Shown piece after piece: positions 38,825 through 57,272 of a DNA stretch of 64,000 nt (positions within the stretch are counted from its first letter, which is position 1; each line of letters opens with the position of its first letter). Source of the stretch: Eledone cirrhosa (taxonomy: Eukaryota); NCBI GenBank assembly GCA_964016885.1, contig OZ024748.1, forward strand, positions 44,950,001-45,014,000, given 5' to 3'. The position numbers and the translations under genes were made by a program. Under the pieces are notes generated by a model. It saw only the letters and a list, made by a program, of their open reading frames with translations, was not told the origin of the DNA and searched no databases.

Positions 38825-38828
<4 letters not shown>

Positions 38829-38994
38829 ATGTATGATCCCAACGGCAGAGCTCAAGCAGTTTCGACGGCTATTTCTAGTCGAAACGGCTTGAGCTCTGCC
38901 GTCGGGGTCATACATTTTCCTATTACCCACTCTACTACTCTAAGTATTGAGTACTCTGGTCCGTTATGGTCCATCTGGTACCACAACTCCTTCG

Positions 38995-38997
<3 letters not shown>
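38825..38997 (+). mobile_element. Half-hammerhead fold-back pLTR (family H, diverged copy)
   Basis: GTC GAAA CGGC-TTGAGCTCT-GCCG TC GGGGTC preceded by its own inverted copy. Followed by ACTC..GAGTAC, ATG 38966 and (TA)n. Confidence 0.7.
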
Positions 38998-39083
<86 letters not shown>

Positions 39084-39100
39084 TAGATATAAATAAATAT

Positions 39101-39281
39101 AATAATTGTTTCTACTTTTGGCACAAGGCCAGTAATTACCTCAACGCATTACTGGTACTTTATTTTATCTACCCCGCAAGGATGAAAGGCAAAGTTAACC
39201 TCGGCGGGATTTGATAAAATAAAGTACCAGTAATAAACTGGTACAATTGCTGGCCTTGTGCCAAAAGTAGGAACAATTATT
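39101..39281. mobile_element. SINE family B: two 3' ends joined head-to-head
   Basis: Minus-strand copy 39101-39212 (B box to tail) fused to the plus-strand tail GATAAAATAAAGTACCAG...GGCCTTGTGCCAAAAGTAG at 39213-39281. Confidence 0.75.
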
Positions 39282-39655
39282 AAATATAAACCAAAAACAA
39301 ACAAAAAAAAATCTTCGAGATGCTATAAACATAAGATGTAGATAAATTGTAGCGTATATAGAGATAGATGTGTGTTTTGGTAGTTTGGGGAGAAGAATAT
39401 AATTATTGGGGGGACCCTGGCCCCCACCCCCCGACCTCCCCCACCTCCCTGGATCCCCTGGCTCTCCGGACACCCCTCCCCCTTCCCCCTGACTCCCCTG
39501 GCTCTCCTGACACCCCTCCCCCTTCCACCTGACTCCTCTGGCTCCTCAGTTCCACCGCCCCCATGTAGGATATATTTCAACATAGGAATTGTGGACCAGT
39601 TTACTGCTGTGGTTGTGGTTGTGGTTGTTGTTGTTGTTGTTGTTGTTGTTGTGGT

Positions 39656-39687
<32 letters not shown>

Positions 39688-39947
39688 TTGCTGTTGTTGC
39701 TGCTGTTGCTGTTGCTGTTGTTGCTGTTGTTGTTGTTGTTTCGCCCCAAGTCAATACCGAGGTTGAGCAAACCTTTCATCAAGTCCGCTCATAACAGGTT
39801 ATTTGGTTCATGTCGTGTCGTAAATATATTCATTCTTTTGATTTCCTTTGATTTCTGACCGTTAAATAATTGATTGGTGTTCAATACTGATTGACTTTCA
39901 TTTAATAATGGTGATGTAGGTAGCGGAGTGGTCAACTATGGGTGGGG

Positions 39948-42900
39948 GGTAGTGGTGGTGGTAGTGGTGGTAGTGGTGGTGCTTGTGGTGGTGGTGGTGG
40001 TAGTGGTGGTAGTGGTGGTAGTGGTGGTGTTGGTGCTTGTGGTGGTGGTAGTGGTGGTGGTGGTGGTGGTAGTGGTGGCGGTGGTGGTGCTTGTGGTGGT
40101 GGTGGTGGTAGTGGTGGTAGTGGTGGTAGTGGTGGTGTTGGTGCTTGTGGTGGTGGTAGTGGTGGTGGTGGTGGTAGTGGTGGTAGTGGTGGTGTTGGTG
40201 CTTGTGGTGGTGGTAGTGGTGGTGGTGGTGGTGGTAGTGGTGGCGGTGGTGGTGCTTGTGGTGGTGGTGGTGGTAGTGGTGGTAGTGGTGGTAGTGGTGG
40301 TGTTGGTGCTTGTGGTGGTGGTAGTGGTGGTGGTGGTGGTAGTGGTGGTAGTGGTGGTGTTGGTGCTTGTGGTGGTGGTAGTGGTGGTGGTGGTGGTGGT
40401 AGTGGTGGCGGTGGTGGTGCTTGTGGTGGTGGTGGTGGTAGTGGTGGTAGTGGTGGTAGTGGCGGTGGTGGTGCTTGTGGTGGTGGTGGTGGTAGTGGTG
40501 GTGCTTGTGGTGGTAGTGGTGGTAGTGGTGGTAGTAGTGGTAGTGGTGGTAGTGGTGGTGTTGGTGCTTGTGGTGGTGGTAGTGGTGGTGGTGGTGGTAG
40601 TGGTGGTAGTGGTGGTGTTGGTGCTTGTGGTGGTGGTAGTGGTGGTGGTGGTGGTGGTAGTGGTGGCGGTGGTGGTGCTTGTGGTGGTGGTGGTGGTAGT
40701 GGTGGTAGTGGTGGTAGTGGCGGTGGTGGTGCTTGTGGTGGTGGTGGTGGTAGTGGTGGTGCTTGTGGTGGTGGTGGTGGTAGTGGTGGTAGTGGTGGTA
40801 GTAGTGGTAGTGGTGGTAGTGGTGGTGTTGGTGCTTGTGGTGGTGGTAGTGGTGGTGGTGGTGGTAGTGGTGGTAGTGGTGGTGTTGGTGCTTGTGGTGG
40901 TGGTAGTGGTGGTGGTAGTGGTGGCGGTGGTGGTGCTTGTGGTGGTGGTGGTGGTAGTGGTGGTAGTGGTGGTAGTGGTGGTGTTGGTGCTTGTGGTGGT
41001 GGTAGTGGTGGTGGTGGTGGTAGTGGTGGTAGTGGTGGTGTTGGTGCTTGTGGTGGTGGTAGTGGTGGTGGTGGTGGTAGTGGTGGTAGTGGTGGTGTTG
41101 GTGCTTGTGGTGGTGGTAGTGGTGGTGGTGGTGGTGGTAGTGGTGGCGGTGGTGGTGCTTGTGGTGGTGGTGGTGGTAGTGGTGGTAGTGGTGGTAGTGG
41201 CGGTGGTGGTGCTTGTGGTGGTGGTGGTGGTAGTGGTGGTGCTTGTGGTGGTAGTGGTGGTAGTGGTGGTAGTAGTGGTAGTGGTGGTAGTGGTGGTGTT
41301 GGTGCTTGTGGTGGTGGTAGTGGTGGTGGTGGTGGTAGTGGTGGTAGTGGTGGTGTTGGTGCTTGTGGTGGTGGTAGTGGTGGTGGTGGTGGTGGTAGTG
41401 GTGGCGGTGGTGGTGCTTGTGGTGGTGGTGGTAGTGGTGGTAGTGGTGGTAGTGGCGGTGGTGGTGCTTGTGGTGGTGGTGGTGGTAGTGGTGGTGCTTG
41501 TGGTGGTGGTGGTGGTAGTGGTGGTAGTGGTGGTAGTAGTGGTAGTGGTGGTAGTGGTGGTGTTGGTGCTTGTGGTGGTGGTAGTGGTGGTGGTGGTGGT
41601 AGTGGTGGTAGTAGTGGTGTTGGTGCTTGTGGTGGTGGTAGTGGTGGTGGTGGTGGTAGTGGTGGTGTTGTTGCTTGTGGTGGTGGTAGTGGTGGTGGTG
41701 GTGGTAGTGGTGGTAGTAGTGGTGTTGGTGCTTGTGGTGGTGGTAGTGGTGGTGGTGGTGGTAGTGGTGGTGTTGGTGCTTGTGGTGGTGGTAGTGGTGG
41801 TGGTGGTGGTAGTGGTGGTAGTGGTGGTGTTGGTGCTTGTGGTGGTGGTAGTGGTGGTGGTAGTGGTAGTGGTGGTGGTAGTGGTGGCGGTGGTGTTGTT
41901 TGTGGTGGTGGCGGTGGTGGTGCTTGTGGTGGTAGTGGTGGTAGTGGTGGTAGTGGTGGTGTTGGTGCTTGTGGTGGTGGTAGTGGTGGTGGTGGTGGTA
42001 GTGGTGGCGGTGGTGGTGCTTGTGGTGGTGGTGGTAGTGGTGGTAGTGGTGGTAGTGGTGGTGTTGGTGCTTGTGGTGGTGGTAGTGGTGATAGTGGTGG
42101 TAGTGGTGGTGTTGGTGCTTGTGGTGGTGGTAGTGGTGGTGGTGGTGGTAGTGGTGGTAGTGGTGGTGTTGGTGCTTGTGGTGGTGGTAGTGGTGGTGGT
42201 GGTGGTAGTGGTGGTAGTGGTGGTGTTGGTGCTTGTGGTGGTGGTAGTGGTGGTGGTGGTGGTAGTGGTGGTAGTGGTGGTGTTGGTGCTTGTGGTGGTG
42301 GTAGTGGTGGTGGTAGTGGTAGTGGTGGTGGTAGTGGTGGCGGTGGTGTTGCTTGTGGTGGTGGCGGTGGTGGTGCTTGTGGTGGTAGTGGTGGTAGTGG
42401 TGGTAGTGGTGGTAGTGGTGGTGTTGGTGCTTGTGGTGGTGGTAGTGGTGGTGGTGGTGGTAGTGGTGGCGGTGGTGGTGCTTGTGGTGGTGGTGGTGGT
42501 AGTTGTGGTAGTGGTGGTGTTGGTGCTTGTGGTGGTGGTAGTGGTGGTAGTGGTGGTGTTGGTGCTTGTGGTGGTGGTAGTGGTGGTGGTAGTGGTGGCG
42601 GTGGTGGTGCTTGTGGTGGTGGTAGTGGTGGTAGTGGTGGTAGTGGTGGTGTTGGTGCTTGTGGTGGTGGTAATGGTGGTGACGGTGGTAGTGGTGGCGG
42701 TGGTGGTGCTTGTCGTGGTGGTGGTGGTAGTGGTGGTGGTGCTTGTGGTGGTAGTGGTGGTGGTAGTGGTGGCGGTGGTGTTGCTTGTGGTGGTGGTGTT
42801 TGTGGTGGTGGTGGTTGTGGTAGTGCTTGTTGTCGTAGTAGTGGTGGTGGAGGTGTTAGTGGTAGTGCTTGTGGTCGTAGTGGTGGTGGTGTTGGTCGTA

Positions 42901-43238
42901 GTGGTGGTGTTGGTAGTGGTGGTGGTGGTGGTGCTGGTGCTGGTGGTAGTAGTGGTGGTGGTGGTGCTTGTGGGGATGGTGGTAGTGGTGCTTGTGGTGG
43001 TGGTAGTAGTGGTGGCGGTGGTGCTTGTTGTTGTTGTGGTGGTGGTGGTAGTGGTGCTTGTGGTGGTGGTAGTAGTGGTGCTTGTGGTGGTGGTATTAGT
43101 GGTGGTGGTGGTGGTGCTTGTGGTGGTAGTGGTAGTGGTGGTAGTGTTGCTTGTGGTGGTGGTAGTAGTGGTGGTGGTGCTTGTGGTGCTGGTAGTGGTG
43201 GTGGTGGTGCTTGTGGTGGTGGTAGTGGTGGTGGTGGG
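39948..43238. repeat. (GGT)n-based compound minisatellite with GTTGGTGCTTGT punctuation
   Basis: Direct inspection. Open in several frames (poly-V, G/S-rich, poly-T). Confidence 0.95.
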
Positions 43239-56607: not shown

Positions 56608-56695
56608 ATTACCGAATATTATTATTGCCCAGAAACTGTTGAGTGCTTTGAATCAGTTGTAAACATCTATATTTGTTGGATTACCAACAATATCT

Positions 56696-56698
<3 letters not shown>
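56608..56698 (+). mobile_element. pLTR 3' tail related to the 9957-10311 family
   Basis: GAGTGCTTTGAATCAGTTGTAAACATCTATATTTGTTGGATTACCAACAAT aligns with the minus strand of 9975-10023 (GAGTGCTTTATATCAGTTATAAAATATTTACTTGTTGTATCCCAACAAT). Confidence 0.6.
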
Positions 56699-56737
<39 letters not shown>

Positions 56738-56740
<3 letters not shown>

Positions 56741-56921
56741 CGAAGGAAATGTGGTAAGGAACCAGGCGGACCATAACGCACCAAAGTACTCAATACTTAG
56801 GGTAGTAGAGTGGGTAATAGGAACAAGTAAGACCCCGACGGCTGAGCTCAAGCCGTTTCGACGGCTAATTCGAATTAGCCGTCGAAACGGCTTGAGCTCA
56901 GCCGTCGGTGTCTTACTTGTT

Positions 56922-56926
<5 letters not shown>
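56738..56926 (-). mobile_element. Half-hammerhead fold-back pLTR (family H), loop-less palindrome
   Basis: Palindrome 56817-56926 with its axis between 56871 and 56872 (GCTAATTC|GAATTAGC). Confidence 0.8.
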
Positions 56927-56972
<46 letters not shown>

Positions 56973-57004
56973 ATATGTATATATATATGTATATATACAT
57001 ACAT

Positions 57005-57064
<60 letters not shown>

Positions 57065-57069
<5 letters not shown>

Positions 57070-57272
57070 AACGAGTAGGACCCCGACGGCTGAGCTCAAG
57101 CTCTTTCGACGGCTAGTTCTGAACTAATTCTGCGTCCAGAATTAGCCGTCAAAACGGCTTGAGCTCAGCCGTCGGGGTCCTACTCGTTCCTATTACCCAC
57201 TCTACTACCCTAAGTATTGAGTACTTTGGTGCGTTATGGTCCACCTGGTTCCTTACCACATTTCCTTCGTTA
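57065..57272 (+). mobile_element. Half-hammerhead fold-back pLTR (family H)
   Basis: Short inverted arm 57065-57115, junction within stem II, long arm through ACTC..GAGTAC and ATG, then (TA)n. Confidence 0.8.

What the first reader, a model, noticed from the sequence alone, without database searches (positions are those of the whole stretch)
38825..57272. Four insertions fold back inside hammerhead stem II, deleting the CUGANGA half
Seen: family H copies at 38825, 45676, 56738 and 57065 all keep stem II-GAAA-stem III (CGGCT/AGCCG)-GUC-stem I 3' strand (GAAA is AAAA in the 57065 long arm). Where the 5' core should be, each has an inverted copy of the 3' half. The junctions differ (4-nt loop, no loop, short insertion, short deletion), which argues for independent events. 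The short arm always stops near TTCC(T) and enters (TA)n. At 61445 the axis is instead at stem I. Inference: the ribozyme helix is the site where cDNA snaps back to prime second-strand synthesis, or where two cDNAs primed from opposite (TA)n strands anneal. This would explain inverted pLTRs mechanistically and give the ribozyme fold a second role in integration. Inverted pLTRs are known; I am not aware of their axis being mapped to ribozyme helices.
Basis: partly seen in the sequence, partly recalled or inferred. Interest (0 to 1): 0.8.

Follow-up and report, generated by a model that had tools for sequence, protein, structure and literature searches.

The report
Penelope inversions end at RNA cap
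These fold-back insertions are ends of a Penelope-like jumping gene whose two arms stop about 30 bases past a TATA-like box, often with one extra G, which likely means that two DNA copies each ran to the capped start of the RNA and were joined head to head, rather than folding back on a ribozyme.

Summary
The four palindromes are real. They are pLTR ends of a Hydra-type Penelope-like element (family H, about 35,000 exact-motif hits in this genome). Long copies carry no adjacent CUGANGA; a U3-A8 variant core (UUGANAA) lies about 40 nt upstream of the axis. The 5' ends pile up at one point: 56 of 65 tail arms and 60 of 63 partner arms that get that far stop within 12 nt. That point is 29-31 nt after a TATA-like box, at an initiator-like motif. 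Related family J (61445) has the same cliff 30 nt after TATAAATA, and there it falls at the start of stem I. Arms ending at +1 carry an untemplated G (J: 15 of 16, against 7 of 22 elsewhere), the known cap signature. The short arm often holds sequence the long arm lacks, which snap-back cannot give. Best model: both target strands prime on (TA)n at two fixed internal RNA sites (+58, +138), both cDNAs run to the cap, and they join by microhomology. No RNA data were available. I found no paper that places PLE inversion axes at the transcription start.

The parts
38825..38876 (-). Family H short arm (no tail); 5' end at about +6, 3' end at the short priming site (+58)
38878..38995 (+). Family H long arm with 80-nt tail; 5' end at about +16 (or +11 with a 3-nt deletion), 3' end at the long site (+138), then (TA)n
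45679..45816 (-). Family H long arm that reaches +1 exactly; the next base reads G on this strand (cap G, or +5 of the partner: ambiguous)
45817..45870 (+). Family H short arm, +5 to +58
56740..56871 (-). Family H long arm, +7 to +138
56872..56923 (+). Family H short arm, +7 to +58; blunt head-to-head join
57068..57125 (-). Family H short arm, read by eye to reach about +1 with mismatches (strict alignment stops at 57115, +11)
57126..57133 (.). Junction insertion: a 7-nt copy of nearby arm sequence plus C; its last two bases are the recurrent G-C in front of +2
57134..57270 (+). Family H long arm, +2 to +138, then (TA)n
61309..61445 (-). Family J long arm (related Hydra-type element, about 50% RT identity); starts at +2 and holds a complete CUGAUGA...GAAA...GUA hammerhead motif
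61446..61499 (+). Family J short arm, starts at +3; blunt join
4491..5011 (.). Family K palindrome (521 bp, 97%), used as a third test: axis about 68 nt upstream of its CTGATGA core (4819 on +, 4683 on -)

Best explanation
The palindromes are insertions of a Hydra-type Penelope-like retroelement in (TA)n, and their axis likely marks the capped 5' end of the element's RNA. A promoter inside the pLTR (CCAAT near -90, TATA-like box at -29 to -31, initiator-like TTAGTC/TCAGTC) would start the RNA at +1 (motifs shown, transcription inferred). The element's endonuclease would nick both target strands; each 3' end primes reverse transcription at one of two fixed internal sites, +58 and +138, each followed by UAU (fixed arm ends shown, priming inferred). 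Both cDNAs would run to the RNA end, often copying the cap as one extra base (extra G shown), and their 3' ends would be joined head to head by 1-4 nt microhomology, blunt joining or short templated fill-in (junction classes shown). The result is one arm with the 80-nt tail, one without, and an axis at about +1. The minority of arms that pass +1 would be primed in the downstream pLTR of an uncut transcript. In H the start site lies inside stem II of a U3-A8 hammerhead variant, so the 5' copy would lack the catalytic core.
For: Cliff: 56 of 65 tail arms and 60 of 63 partner arms that reach +8 stop between -4 and +8 (about 5-7% expected from the rate over the rest of the arm); 8 of 100 tail arms pass -10. 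Genome counts agree: 35,509 and 34,377 exact hits downstream, 1,008 and 672 upstream. Family J: 26 of 39 and 31 of 32, with no tail arm ending between -7 and -84. TATA-like box 29 nt (12 copies) or 31 nt (56 copies) before +1 in the 68 of 71 long H copies where both motifs were read; TATAAAT at -30 and -32 in two long J copies; CCAAT at -84 to -92 in 5 of 6 long copies. Only 0-4% of upstream positions have such a box at that distance. Extra G: J arms ending at +1 with an insertion have G next in 15 of 16, against 7 of 22 at other positions (Fisher p=1.7e-4). In genome-wide listings the base at -1 was G 43, T 39, C 10, A 8 of 100 for H (template T or C) and G 56, C 38, T 4, A 2 of 100 for J (template C); counted by eye, first 30 rows of each confirmed by script. 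Some junctions carry the G on both arms. Two cDNAs: the partner arm reaches at least 10 nt further 5' than the tail arm in 22 pairs against 4; 73 of 80 partner arms end at the same short site; 56 of 60 pairs are long+short; lone arms ending at the short site exist. Literature: extra G marks the cap at full-length L1 junctions (PMC11702581, passages); a purified PLE cuts and extends both strands from two internal start sites that bound the tail, without needing ribozyme cleavage (PMC11167929, main text); Naiads make inverted copies without canonical hammerheads (PMC8557442, passages).
Against: No RNA evidence was obtained, so the start site and the cap are inferred from DNA. In H the ends are spread over 12 nt and the commonest end is +2, not +1. 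About 20 of the 43 G's in the H listing can also be read as partner-arm or copied sequence (my reading), and the parsed H junctions gave no insertion-bearing arm ending exactly at +1. Several of the 22 asymmetric pairs involve internal deletions or alignment gaps; 8 are clear cases (tail arm starts at +58 or later, partner reaches +7 or beyond), and later deletion inside a palindrome could mimic them. Arms of a pair share the subfamily haplotype in 47 of 60 pairs (18% if random), which fits one RNA but also snap-back. The upstream count patterns cover mainly one subfamily, so the 35-fold ratio overstates the cliff. A recurrent G-C in place of G-A at +1 is unexplained. Samples come from the first 36 Mb of one contig.
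Confidence: 0.8

Rival explanations
1. One reading: the ribozyme helix is where cDNA snaps back, or where two cDNAs anneal, and this sets the axis.
For: In H the pile-up lies in the 3' strand of an extended stem II predicted for long copies. A few junctions use a helix exactly: L202 at stem III (6 nt), L301 and L389 at J stem I.
Against: The axis lies at different places of the fold in H, J and K. Both H arms stop in the same 12 nt instead of on the two strands of a helix (stem II 5' strand is near -35 to -27). Most overlaps are 1-4 nt. The short arm often has sequence the long arm lacks. The extra G is not predicted. Naiads lack canonical hammerheads yet form inverted copies (PMC8557442).
Confidence: 0.05
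2. The reverse transcriptase stalls at a structure or bound protein on a longer read-through RNA and adds an untemplated C by terminal transferase activity; the TATA-like boxes are coincidental.
For: H ends are spread over 12 nt. Reverse transcriptases are known to add untemplated bases (recalled). Arms that pass the cliff exist.
Against: The extra G is specific to +1 (15 of 16 against 7 of 22). Two families with unrelated pLTR sequence both stop about 30 nt after a TATA-like box. There is no pile-up at the entry to stem III or stem II.
Confidence: 0.08
3. The short palindromes are non-autonomous units (MITE-like or retrozyme-like) copied whole from a few palindromic masters, or they arise by rearrangement after insertion.
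For: One junction string recurs in many of the 30 best hits to the 57065 copy (a sample selected for that string). About 35,000 copies.
Against: 37 of 40 junctions are distinct in the position-ordered sample. The same two-ended layout encloses kilobases of RT-EN sequence in long copies. The arms are unequal and either orientation occurs. No tandem arrays of whole hammerheads were seen in the sampled loci.
Confidence: 0.04
4. Self-priming on an antisense transcript makes the head-to-head repeat (proposed for Adineta vaga PLEs).
For: Proposed in PMC3846280 (passages) from palindromic junctions and two-way TATA motifs.
Against: It does not predict two fixed outer ends that each join (TA)n, an extra G on the sense strand at +1, or a short arm longer at its 5' end than the long arm.
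Confidence: 0.03

Closest known systems
Hydra clade of Penelope-like elements (Craig et al. 2021, PMC8557442)
   Same: C-terminal GIY-YIG-type endonuclease after RT; RWR, DKT, CxCx5C linker, CxxC and CxH motifs; (TA)n targeting; hammerhead-like motif in the pLTR; inverted 5'-truncated copy and a tail at one end.
   Different: Tail is 80 nt (30-40 bp described). Family H has a U3-A8 core with a long stem II, where the paper reports canonical hammerheads in Hydra. Most copies are only the +1 to +138 piece. The passages read do not map the inversion axis.
Poseidon element PAc in vitro (Frangieh et al. 2024, PMC11167929)
   Same: Both target strands are cut and extended; two internal start sites bound the tail; uncut RNA is the main template.
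   Different: That work does not treat inverted copies, the transcription start or the cap (term search). Here both start sites are followed by UAU, which can pair with the (TA)n primer, whereas PAc starts were reported as non-homologous to the target.
LINE-1 twin priming and cap-derived G (PMC11702581)
   Same: Second target strand primes on the RNA, two cDNAs are joined by microhomology, and an extra G marks the cap.
   Different: In L1 the second primer anneals at variable internal places and the two pieces barely overlap. Here both priming sites are fixed and both cDNAs usually run to the RNA start, which gives an inverted duplication.
PLE hammerheads, including the U3-A8 variant (Cervera and de la Pena 2014, PMC4209133)
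   Same: Type I topology in the pLTR; U3-A8 in place of C3-G8 was reported in Schistosoma Cercyon elements; irregular base next to the start of stem II.
   Different: Family H has a full stem III and a stem II of about 55 nt that holds the TATA-like box and the inferred start site. Cleavage is untested.
Penelope pLTR promoters (PMC2377424; PMC3846280)
   Same: Promoter lies in the pLTR; a TATA plus initiator arrangement was noted in an Adineta vaga pLTR.
   Different: The D. virilis promoter is TATA-less and internal. Here the promoter motifs are upstream of +1, so copies that start at +1 would lose them. The passages read do not link the start site to the inversion axis.
Non-LTR retrozymes (bioRxiv 10.64898/2026.07.22.740005)
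   Same: Short non-coding PLE-derived sequences related to pLTRs.
   Different: Retrozymes are head-to-tail tandems with whole hammerheads; these are head-to-head pairs, and H pairs lack the core.

Membership tests
Penelope-like element (EN+) | RT followed by GIY-YIG endonuclease on the pLTR strand | tested here: met
   Long copies L091, L092, L109, L225: RT motifs (QFDIESYY, YRDDGL) and a downstream YIG motif; Pfam GIY-YIG only E=0.069, below cut-off; 1,085 homologs at E<=1e-20. No single intact ORF was seen; the frames are broken in the copies read.
Penelope-like element (EN+) | Partial tandem forming a pLTR, inverted truncated copy, tail at one end | tested here: met
   L225 and L297 run from upstream pLTR through the tail into the ORF; 80 of 100 copies have an inverted partner; 56 of 60 pairs are long+short.
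Penelope-like element (EN+) | Target-site duplication | not testable with these tools
   Both flanks are (TA)n (95 of 100 tail ends).
Hydra clade | RWK-type and DKT motifs in RT | tested here: met
   RWR and DKT in H and J, compared with the description in PMC8557442.
Hydra clade | CxCx5C linker, CxxC and CxH in the endonuclease, no CCHH | tested here: met
   CNCPDRSTC, CNLC and CKH in L092; CCHH not seen by inspection.
Hydra clade | (TA)n targeting | tested here: met
   95 of 100.
Hydra clade | Length generally under 3 kb | tested here: inconclusive
   Unit is roughly 3.1 kb as estimated from L092 and the ATG at +232 in L225; not measured on an intact copy.
Hydra clade | Placement in the clade by RT phylogeny | not tested
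   No named reference PLE proteins were held; no tree was built.
Type I hammerhead (family H) | CUGANGA core | tested here: not met
   Core reads TTGANAA in 58 of 65 long copies, CTGAGAA in 3, other in 4 (part of the sample was selected by this motif).
Type I hammerhead (family H) | Known U3-A8 variant core with free N7, GAAA and NUH | tested here: met
   All four bases occur at N7; GAAA at +19 to +22 and GUC ending at +41; variant described in PMC4209133.
Type I hammerhead (family H) | Three-helix junction | tested here: inconclusive
   The hammerhead fold is the lowest-energy fold in L225, within 1.1 kcal/mol in L092, a three-way junction without the G-C closing pair in L213, and not favoured in L109. 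No covariation test was run.
Type I hammerhead (family H) | Self-cleavage | not testable with these tools
   Needs an in vitro assay.
Non-LTR retrozyme | Head-to-tail tandem units with whole hammerheads | tested here: not met
   Sampled copies are head-to-head pairs or single arms.
MITE | Fixed terminal inverted repeats and a constant internal sequence from a DNA transposon | tested here: not met
   Unequal arms, 37 of 40 distinct junctions, RT-EN parent.

The most novel reading that the evidence does not exclude
The inverted repeats and the tail that define Penelope-like insertions are the product of programmed twin priming: one RT-endonuclease complex primes both target strands at two fixed sites near the 5' end of the RNA, and both cDNAs run off at the cap, like paired retroviral strong-stop DNAs. 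Most of the tens of thousands of copies in this genome are such paired strong-stop products, so PLE start sites can be read from genome sequence alone. In family H the promoter is built into the ribozyme's stem II, so only the downstream pLTR copy can fold a ribozyme and +1 to +41 would act as a terminal repeat for rebuilding the pLTR.
Probability: 0.5. Interest if true: 0.8.

Novelty: new variant of a known kind. Interest (0 to 1): 0.62.

Why it matters
How Penelope-like elements make their tandem and inverted structures is stated as unresolved (PMC8557442, PMC2377424), and one published guess is self-priming on antisense RNA (PMC3846280). This genome holds tens of thousands of independent junctions that point to a simple rule joining two known facts: two internal start sites on both strands, and copying of the cap. 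The rule predicts exact start sites for 5' RACE, predicts the same G at the axis in hammerhead-free Naiads, and removes the need for a ribozyme role in integration. It also explains why such repeats get annotated as hairpins or MITEs.

Tried and rejected
Rfam scan of the window: no hammerhead among the rows shown, only sub-threshold microRNA matches to palindromes and microsatellites. Search for canonical cores upstream of GAAA: 41 hits genome-wide; of 30 inspected none had stem I adjacent, 15 were flagged by script as lying at an inverted junction, and the rest were read as unrelated or other-family sequence. My first guess of Neptune clade was dropped after reading the Hydra definition. The J part used a reference that itself held an inverted arm; those J numbers were discarded and redone. 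The first core-collection script matched nothing and was redone. Two single J arms (L287, L301) with G at -1 were set aside because stem I complementarity explains them. Arm-specific SNPs did not separate snap-back from two cDNAs: 47 of 60 pairs share the haplotype and only 2 differ by recurrent haplotypes. No RNA holder was listed. Contigs of three runs of unrecorded kind were laid on L225: X1 and X4 show the same step at +1 and drop after +138, which argues against an artefact of this assembly, but they may be the source sample and cannot show RNA starts. A pile-up of tail-arm ends just past +58 (6 arms at +58 to +67) was seen but is confounded by TA microhomology. A pile-up at the hammerhead cleavage site was not seen in H or J. 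Look-ups of earlier scan findings returned nothing.
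Full report
Observation. The four palindromes are in the window as described, each between (TA)n tracts, each with a long arm that carries an 80-nt tail and a short arm that stops at TTCC. The 61445 palindrome belongs to another family. The window lies on contig C8 of a 3.0-Gb genome; I did not determine the organism.

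What the element is. Exact motifs from the shared region occur 34,377 and 35,509 times in the genome, motifs just upstream 1,008 and 672 times (the upstream patterns cover mainly one subfamily). Long copies show RT followed by a GIY-YIG-type endonuclease on the same strand, a long 3' UTR and then the repeat. In L225 the tail runs on into the ORF, with ATG at +232, so the repeat is a pLTR. The protein has RWR, DKT, a CxCx5C linker, CxxC and CxH, which match the Hydra clade description (PMC8557442, passages). Family J is a relative at about 50% RT identity. No tree was built, and no intact ORF was seen in the copies read.

The ribozyme. A genome search gave 41 hits; none of the 30 inspected had stem I next to the core. 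Long copies instead read ACCCC, then TTGANAA (58 of 65; all four bases at N7; part of the sample selected by this motif), then a G and a strand that pairs with TAGCCG before GAAA. U3-A8 is a described PLE variant (PMC4209133, parts 1-2 of 4 read). The hammerhead fold is the best or near-best fold in two of four long copies, partial in one and not favoured in one. So H probably carries a variant hammerhead with a long stem II; activity is untested. Numbering below takes the A of TTAGTC/TCAGTC as +1: core -43 to -37, TATA-like box -29 to -22, GAAA +19 to +22, cleavage after +41, arm ends +58 and +138 (copy L225).

Where the arms stop. I took the first 100 tail-motif hits on contig C1, a sample blind to the 5' end. 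Eighty had an inverted partner within 50 nt. Of tail arms that reach +8, 56 of 65 stop between -4 and +8; of partner arms, 60 of 63; the rate over the rest of the arm predicts 5-7%. Eight of 100 tail arms pass -10. For J (first 71 of the 100 listed hits), 26 of 39 and 31 of 32 stop in the same window, and no tail arm ends between -7 and -84. In J that window is the first bases of stem I. In family K (30 loci chosen by the core motif), 11 of 30 arms start 56-77 nt upstream of the core and the other 19 start 109 nt or more upstream. The axis therefore has no fixed place in the ribozyme fold.

What the stop points share. In H a TATA-like box lies 29 nt (12 copies) or 31 nt (56 copies) before +1. 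In J, TATAAAT lies at -30 or -32, and CCAAT lies at -84 to -92 in five of six long copies of both families. Such a box sits at that distance from only 0-4% of other upstream positions. The names TATA, CCAAT and initiator and their usual spacing are from my own knowledge.

The extra G. J arms that end exactly at +1 and have inserted bases show G next in 15 of 16 cases, against 7 of 22 for other end points (which includes 30 loci chosen by likeness to the window copy from +2 on; p=1.7e-4). Listings that force a non-template base at -2 give, at -1, G 56, C 38, T 4, A 2 for J (template C; first 100 of 2,862 hits) and G 43, T 39, C 10, A 8 for H (template T or C; first 100 of 5,590). I counted these by eye; a script confirmed the first 30 rows of each. 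About 20 of the H G's could come from the partner arm, so J is the cleaner case. G also appears between (TA)n and +1 in lone arms, and on both arms of some junctions. An extra G is the recognised trace of the cap at full-length L1 junctions (PMC11702581, passages).

One cDNA or two. The partner arm reaches at least 10 nt further 5' than the tail arm in 22 H pairs against 4 the other way, and 9 against 3 in J. In 8 H pairs the tail arm starts at +58 or later while the partner reaches +7 or beyond, so the partner cannot be a copy of the tail arm unless a later deletion removed the overlap. Partner arms end at the short site in 73 of 80 cases, 56 of 60 pairs are long+short, and 47 of 60 share the subfamily haplotype (this set includes selected loci). 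Junctions show 1-7 nt overlap in 26 of 50 (H) and 16 of 39 (J), blunt joins in 7 and 4, and insertions, often copies of nearby arm sequence, in the rest. A purified PLE extends both strands from two internal sites that bound the tail and does not need cleavage (PMC11167929, parts 1-2 of 4 read).

Model. Shown: fixed outer ends, pile-up at +1, promoter-like motifs, extra G, junction classes, asymmetry. Inferred: transcription from +1, capping, priming on both strands, end joining. Arms that pass +1 would come from priming in the downstream pLTR of uncut RNA. Short copies could come from the 5' end of full-length RNA or from short RNAs made by truncated copies that keep the promoter; the data do not separate these. 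How the pLTR is rebuilt is not shown; a jump through the +1 to +41 repeat is a guess.

Against my reading. No RNA run was listed. H ends are spread, with the mode at +2. Helix-guided joins occur at low frequency (L202; L301, L389). Lone H arms that start at +2 next to (TA)n are preceded by G-C in 17 of the 48 rows that do not simply continue the repeat (first 100 of 200 hits, counted by eye); this suggests the cap plus a misread first base but is unexplained. Contigs of runs X1 and X4 show the same step at +1, but their kind is not on record and they may be the source sample.

Literature. Inverted truncated copies and the tail are known (PMC8557442, PMC3846280, passages), as is a pLTR promoter (PMC2377424, passages). 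The retrozyme preprint was read in part 1 of 5. Searches for Penelope with strong-stop and cap, twin priming, head-to-head and pLTR since 2022, cephalopod and TA terms, and inverted repeats with start site and capped listed no paper that, by title and abstract start, places the axis at the start site. The library lacks most subscription papers, and I opened no supplements; those of PMC11167929 and PMC8557442 could bear on this.

Verdict. The feature is real and the family is a known kind. The start-site and twin-priming reading is well supported from DNA and makes an open question testable. Interest 0.62.

Noticed in passing
G000 genome-wide; window 57132-57133: H arms that start at +2 are often preceded by G-C instead of template T-A, also in lone arms next to (TA)n and in two subfamilies (17 of 48 informative rows). 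It may be the cap plus a misread, possibly modified, first adenosine.
   Followed up: partly
window 4491-5011; L321-L350: Family K (6,241 motif hits): hammerhead-core repeat whose truncated arms start near AAGATGGCG, downstream of CCGGATGT and CATGCGCA; these resemble YY1, ETS and NRF1 sites of TATA-less promoters (names recalled). An endonuclease match lies about 0.9 kb upstream of the core in L340.
   Followed up: partly
window 10047-10310, 6298-6372, 29648-29985, 19023: Further repeats with CTGANGA...GAAA motifs, three of them palindromic or beside a palindrome; probably other PLE families.
   Followed up: no
L026, L030, L058, L237, L271, L273: Family H and J insertions sit side by side in the same (TA)n tracts.
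   Followed up: no
L188, L260: Tail arms with a deletion between the two direct AGCCGTC-like repeats (+12 to +18 and +35 to +41), suggesting template slippage.
   Followed up: no
L140 (= L208), L235: Two pairs whose arms carry different recurrent subfamily haplotypes; possible use of two RNAs or later conversion.
   Followed up: partly
L109, L119, L151, L130: Core variants CTGAGAA (three copies) and TTGAAGA (one older copy) break the 3-8 pair; the ribozyme may be decaying in some subfamilies.
   Followed up: partly
window 56238-56610: A reading frame start that looks like the endonuclease N-terminus of a non-LTR retrotransposon (impression from recall, not searched).
   Followed up: no
window 38717-38787 and 39105-39176; 43707-44133: Inverted pairs of another abundant short repeat, one pair bracketing the 38825 copy (90% over 72 bp).
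   Followed up: no
run X5 (organism B): A second organism holds family H sequence: one contig spans the promoter region and one short contig is a fold-back near +11.
   Followed up: no
window: The window holds 200 N bases; their place was not looked up (none is in the regions read).
   Followed up: no
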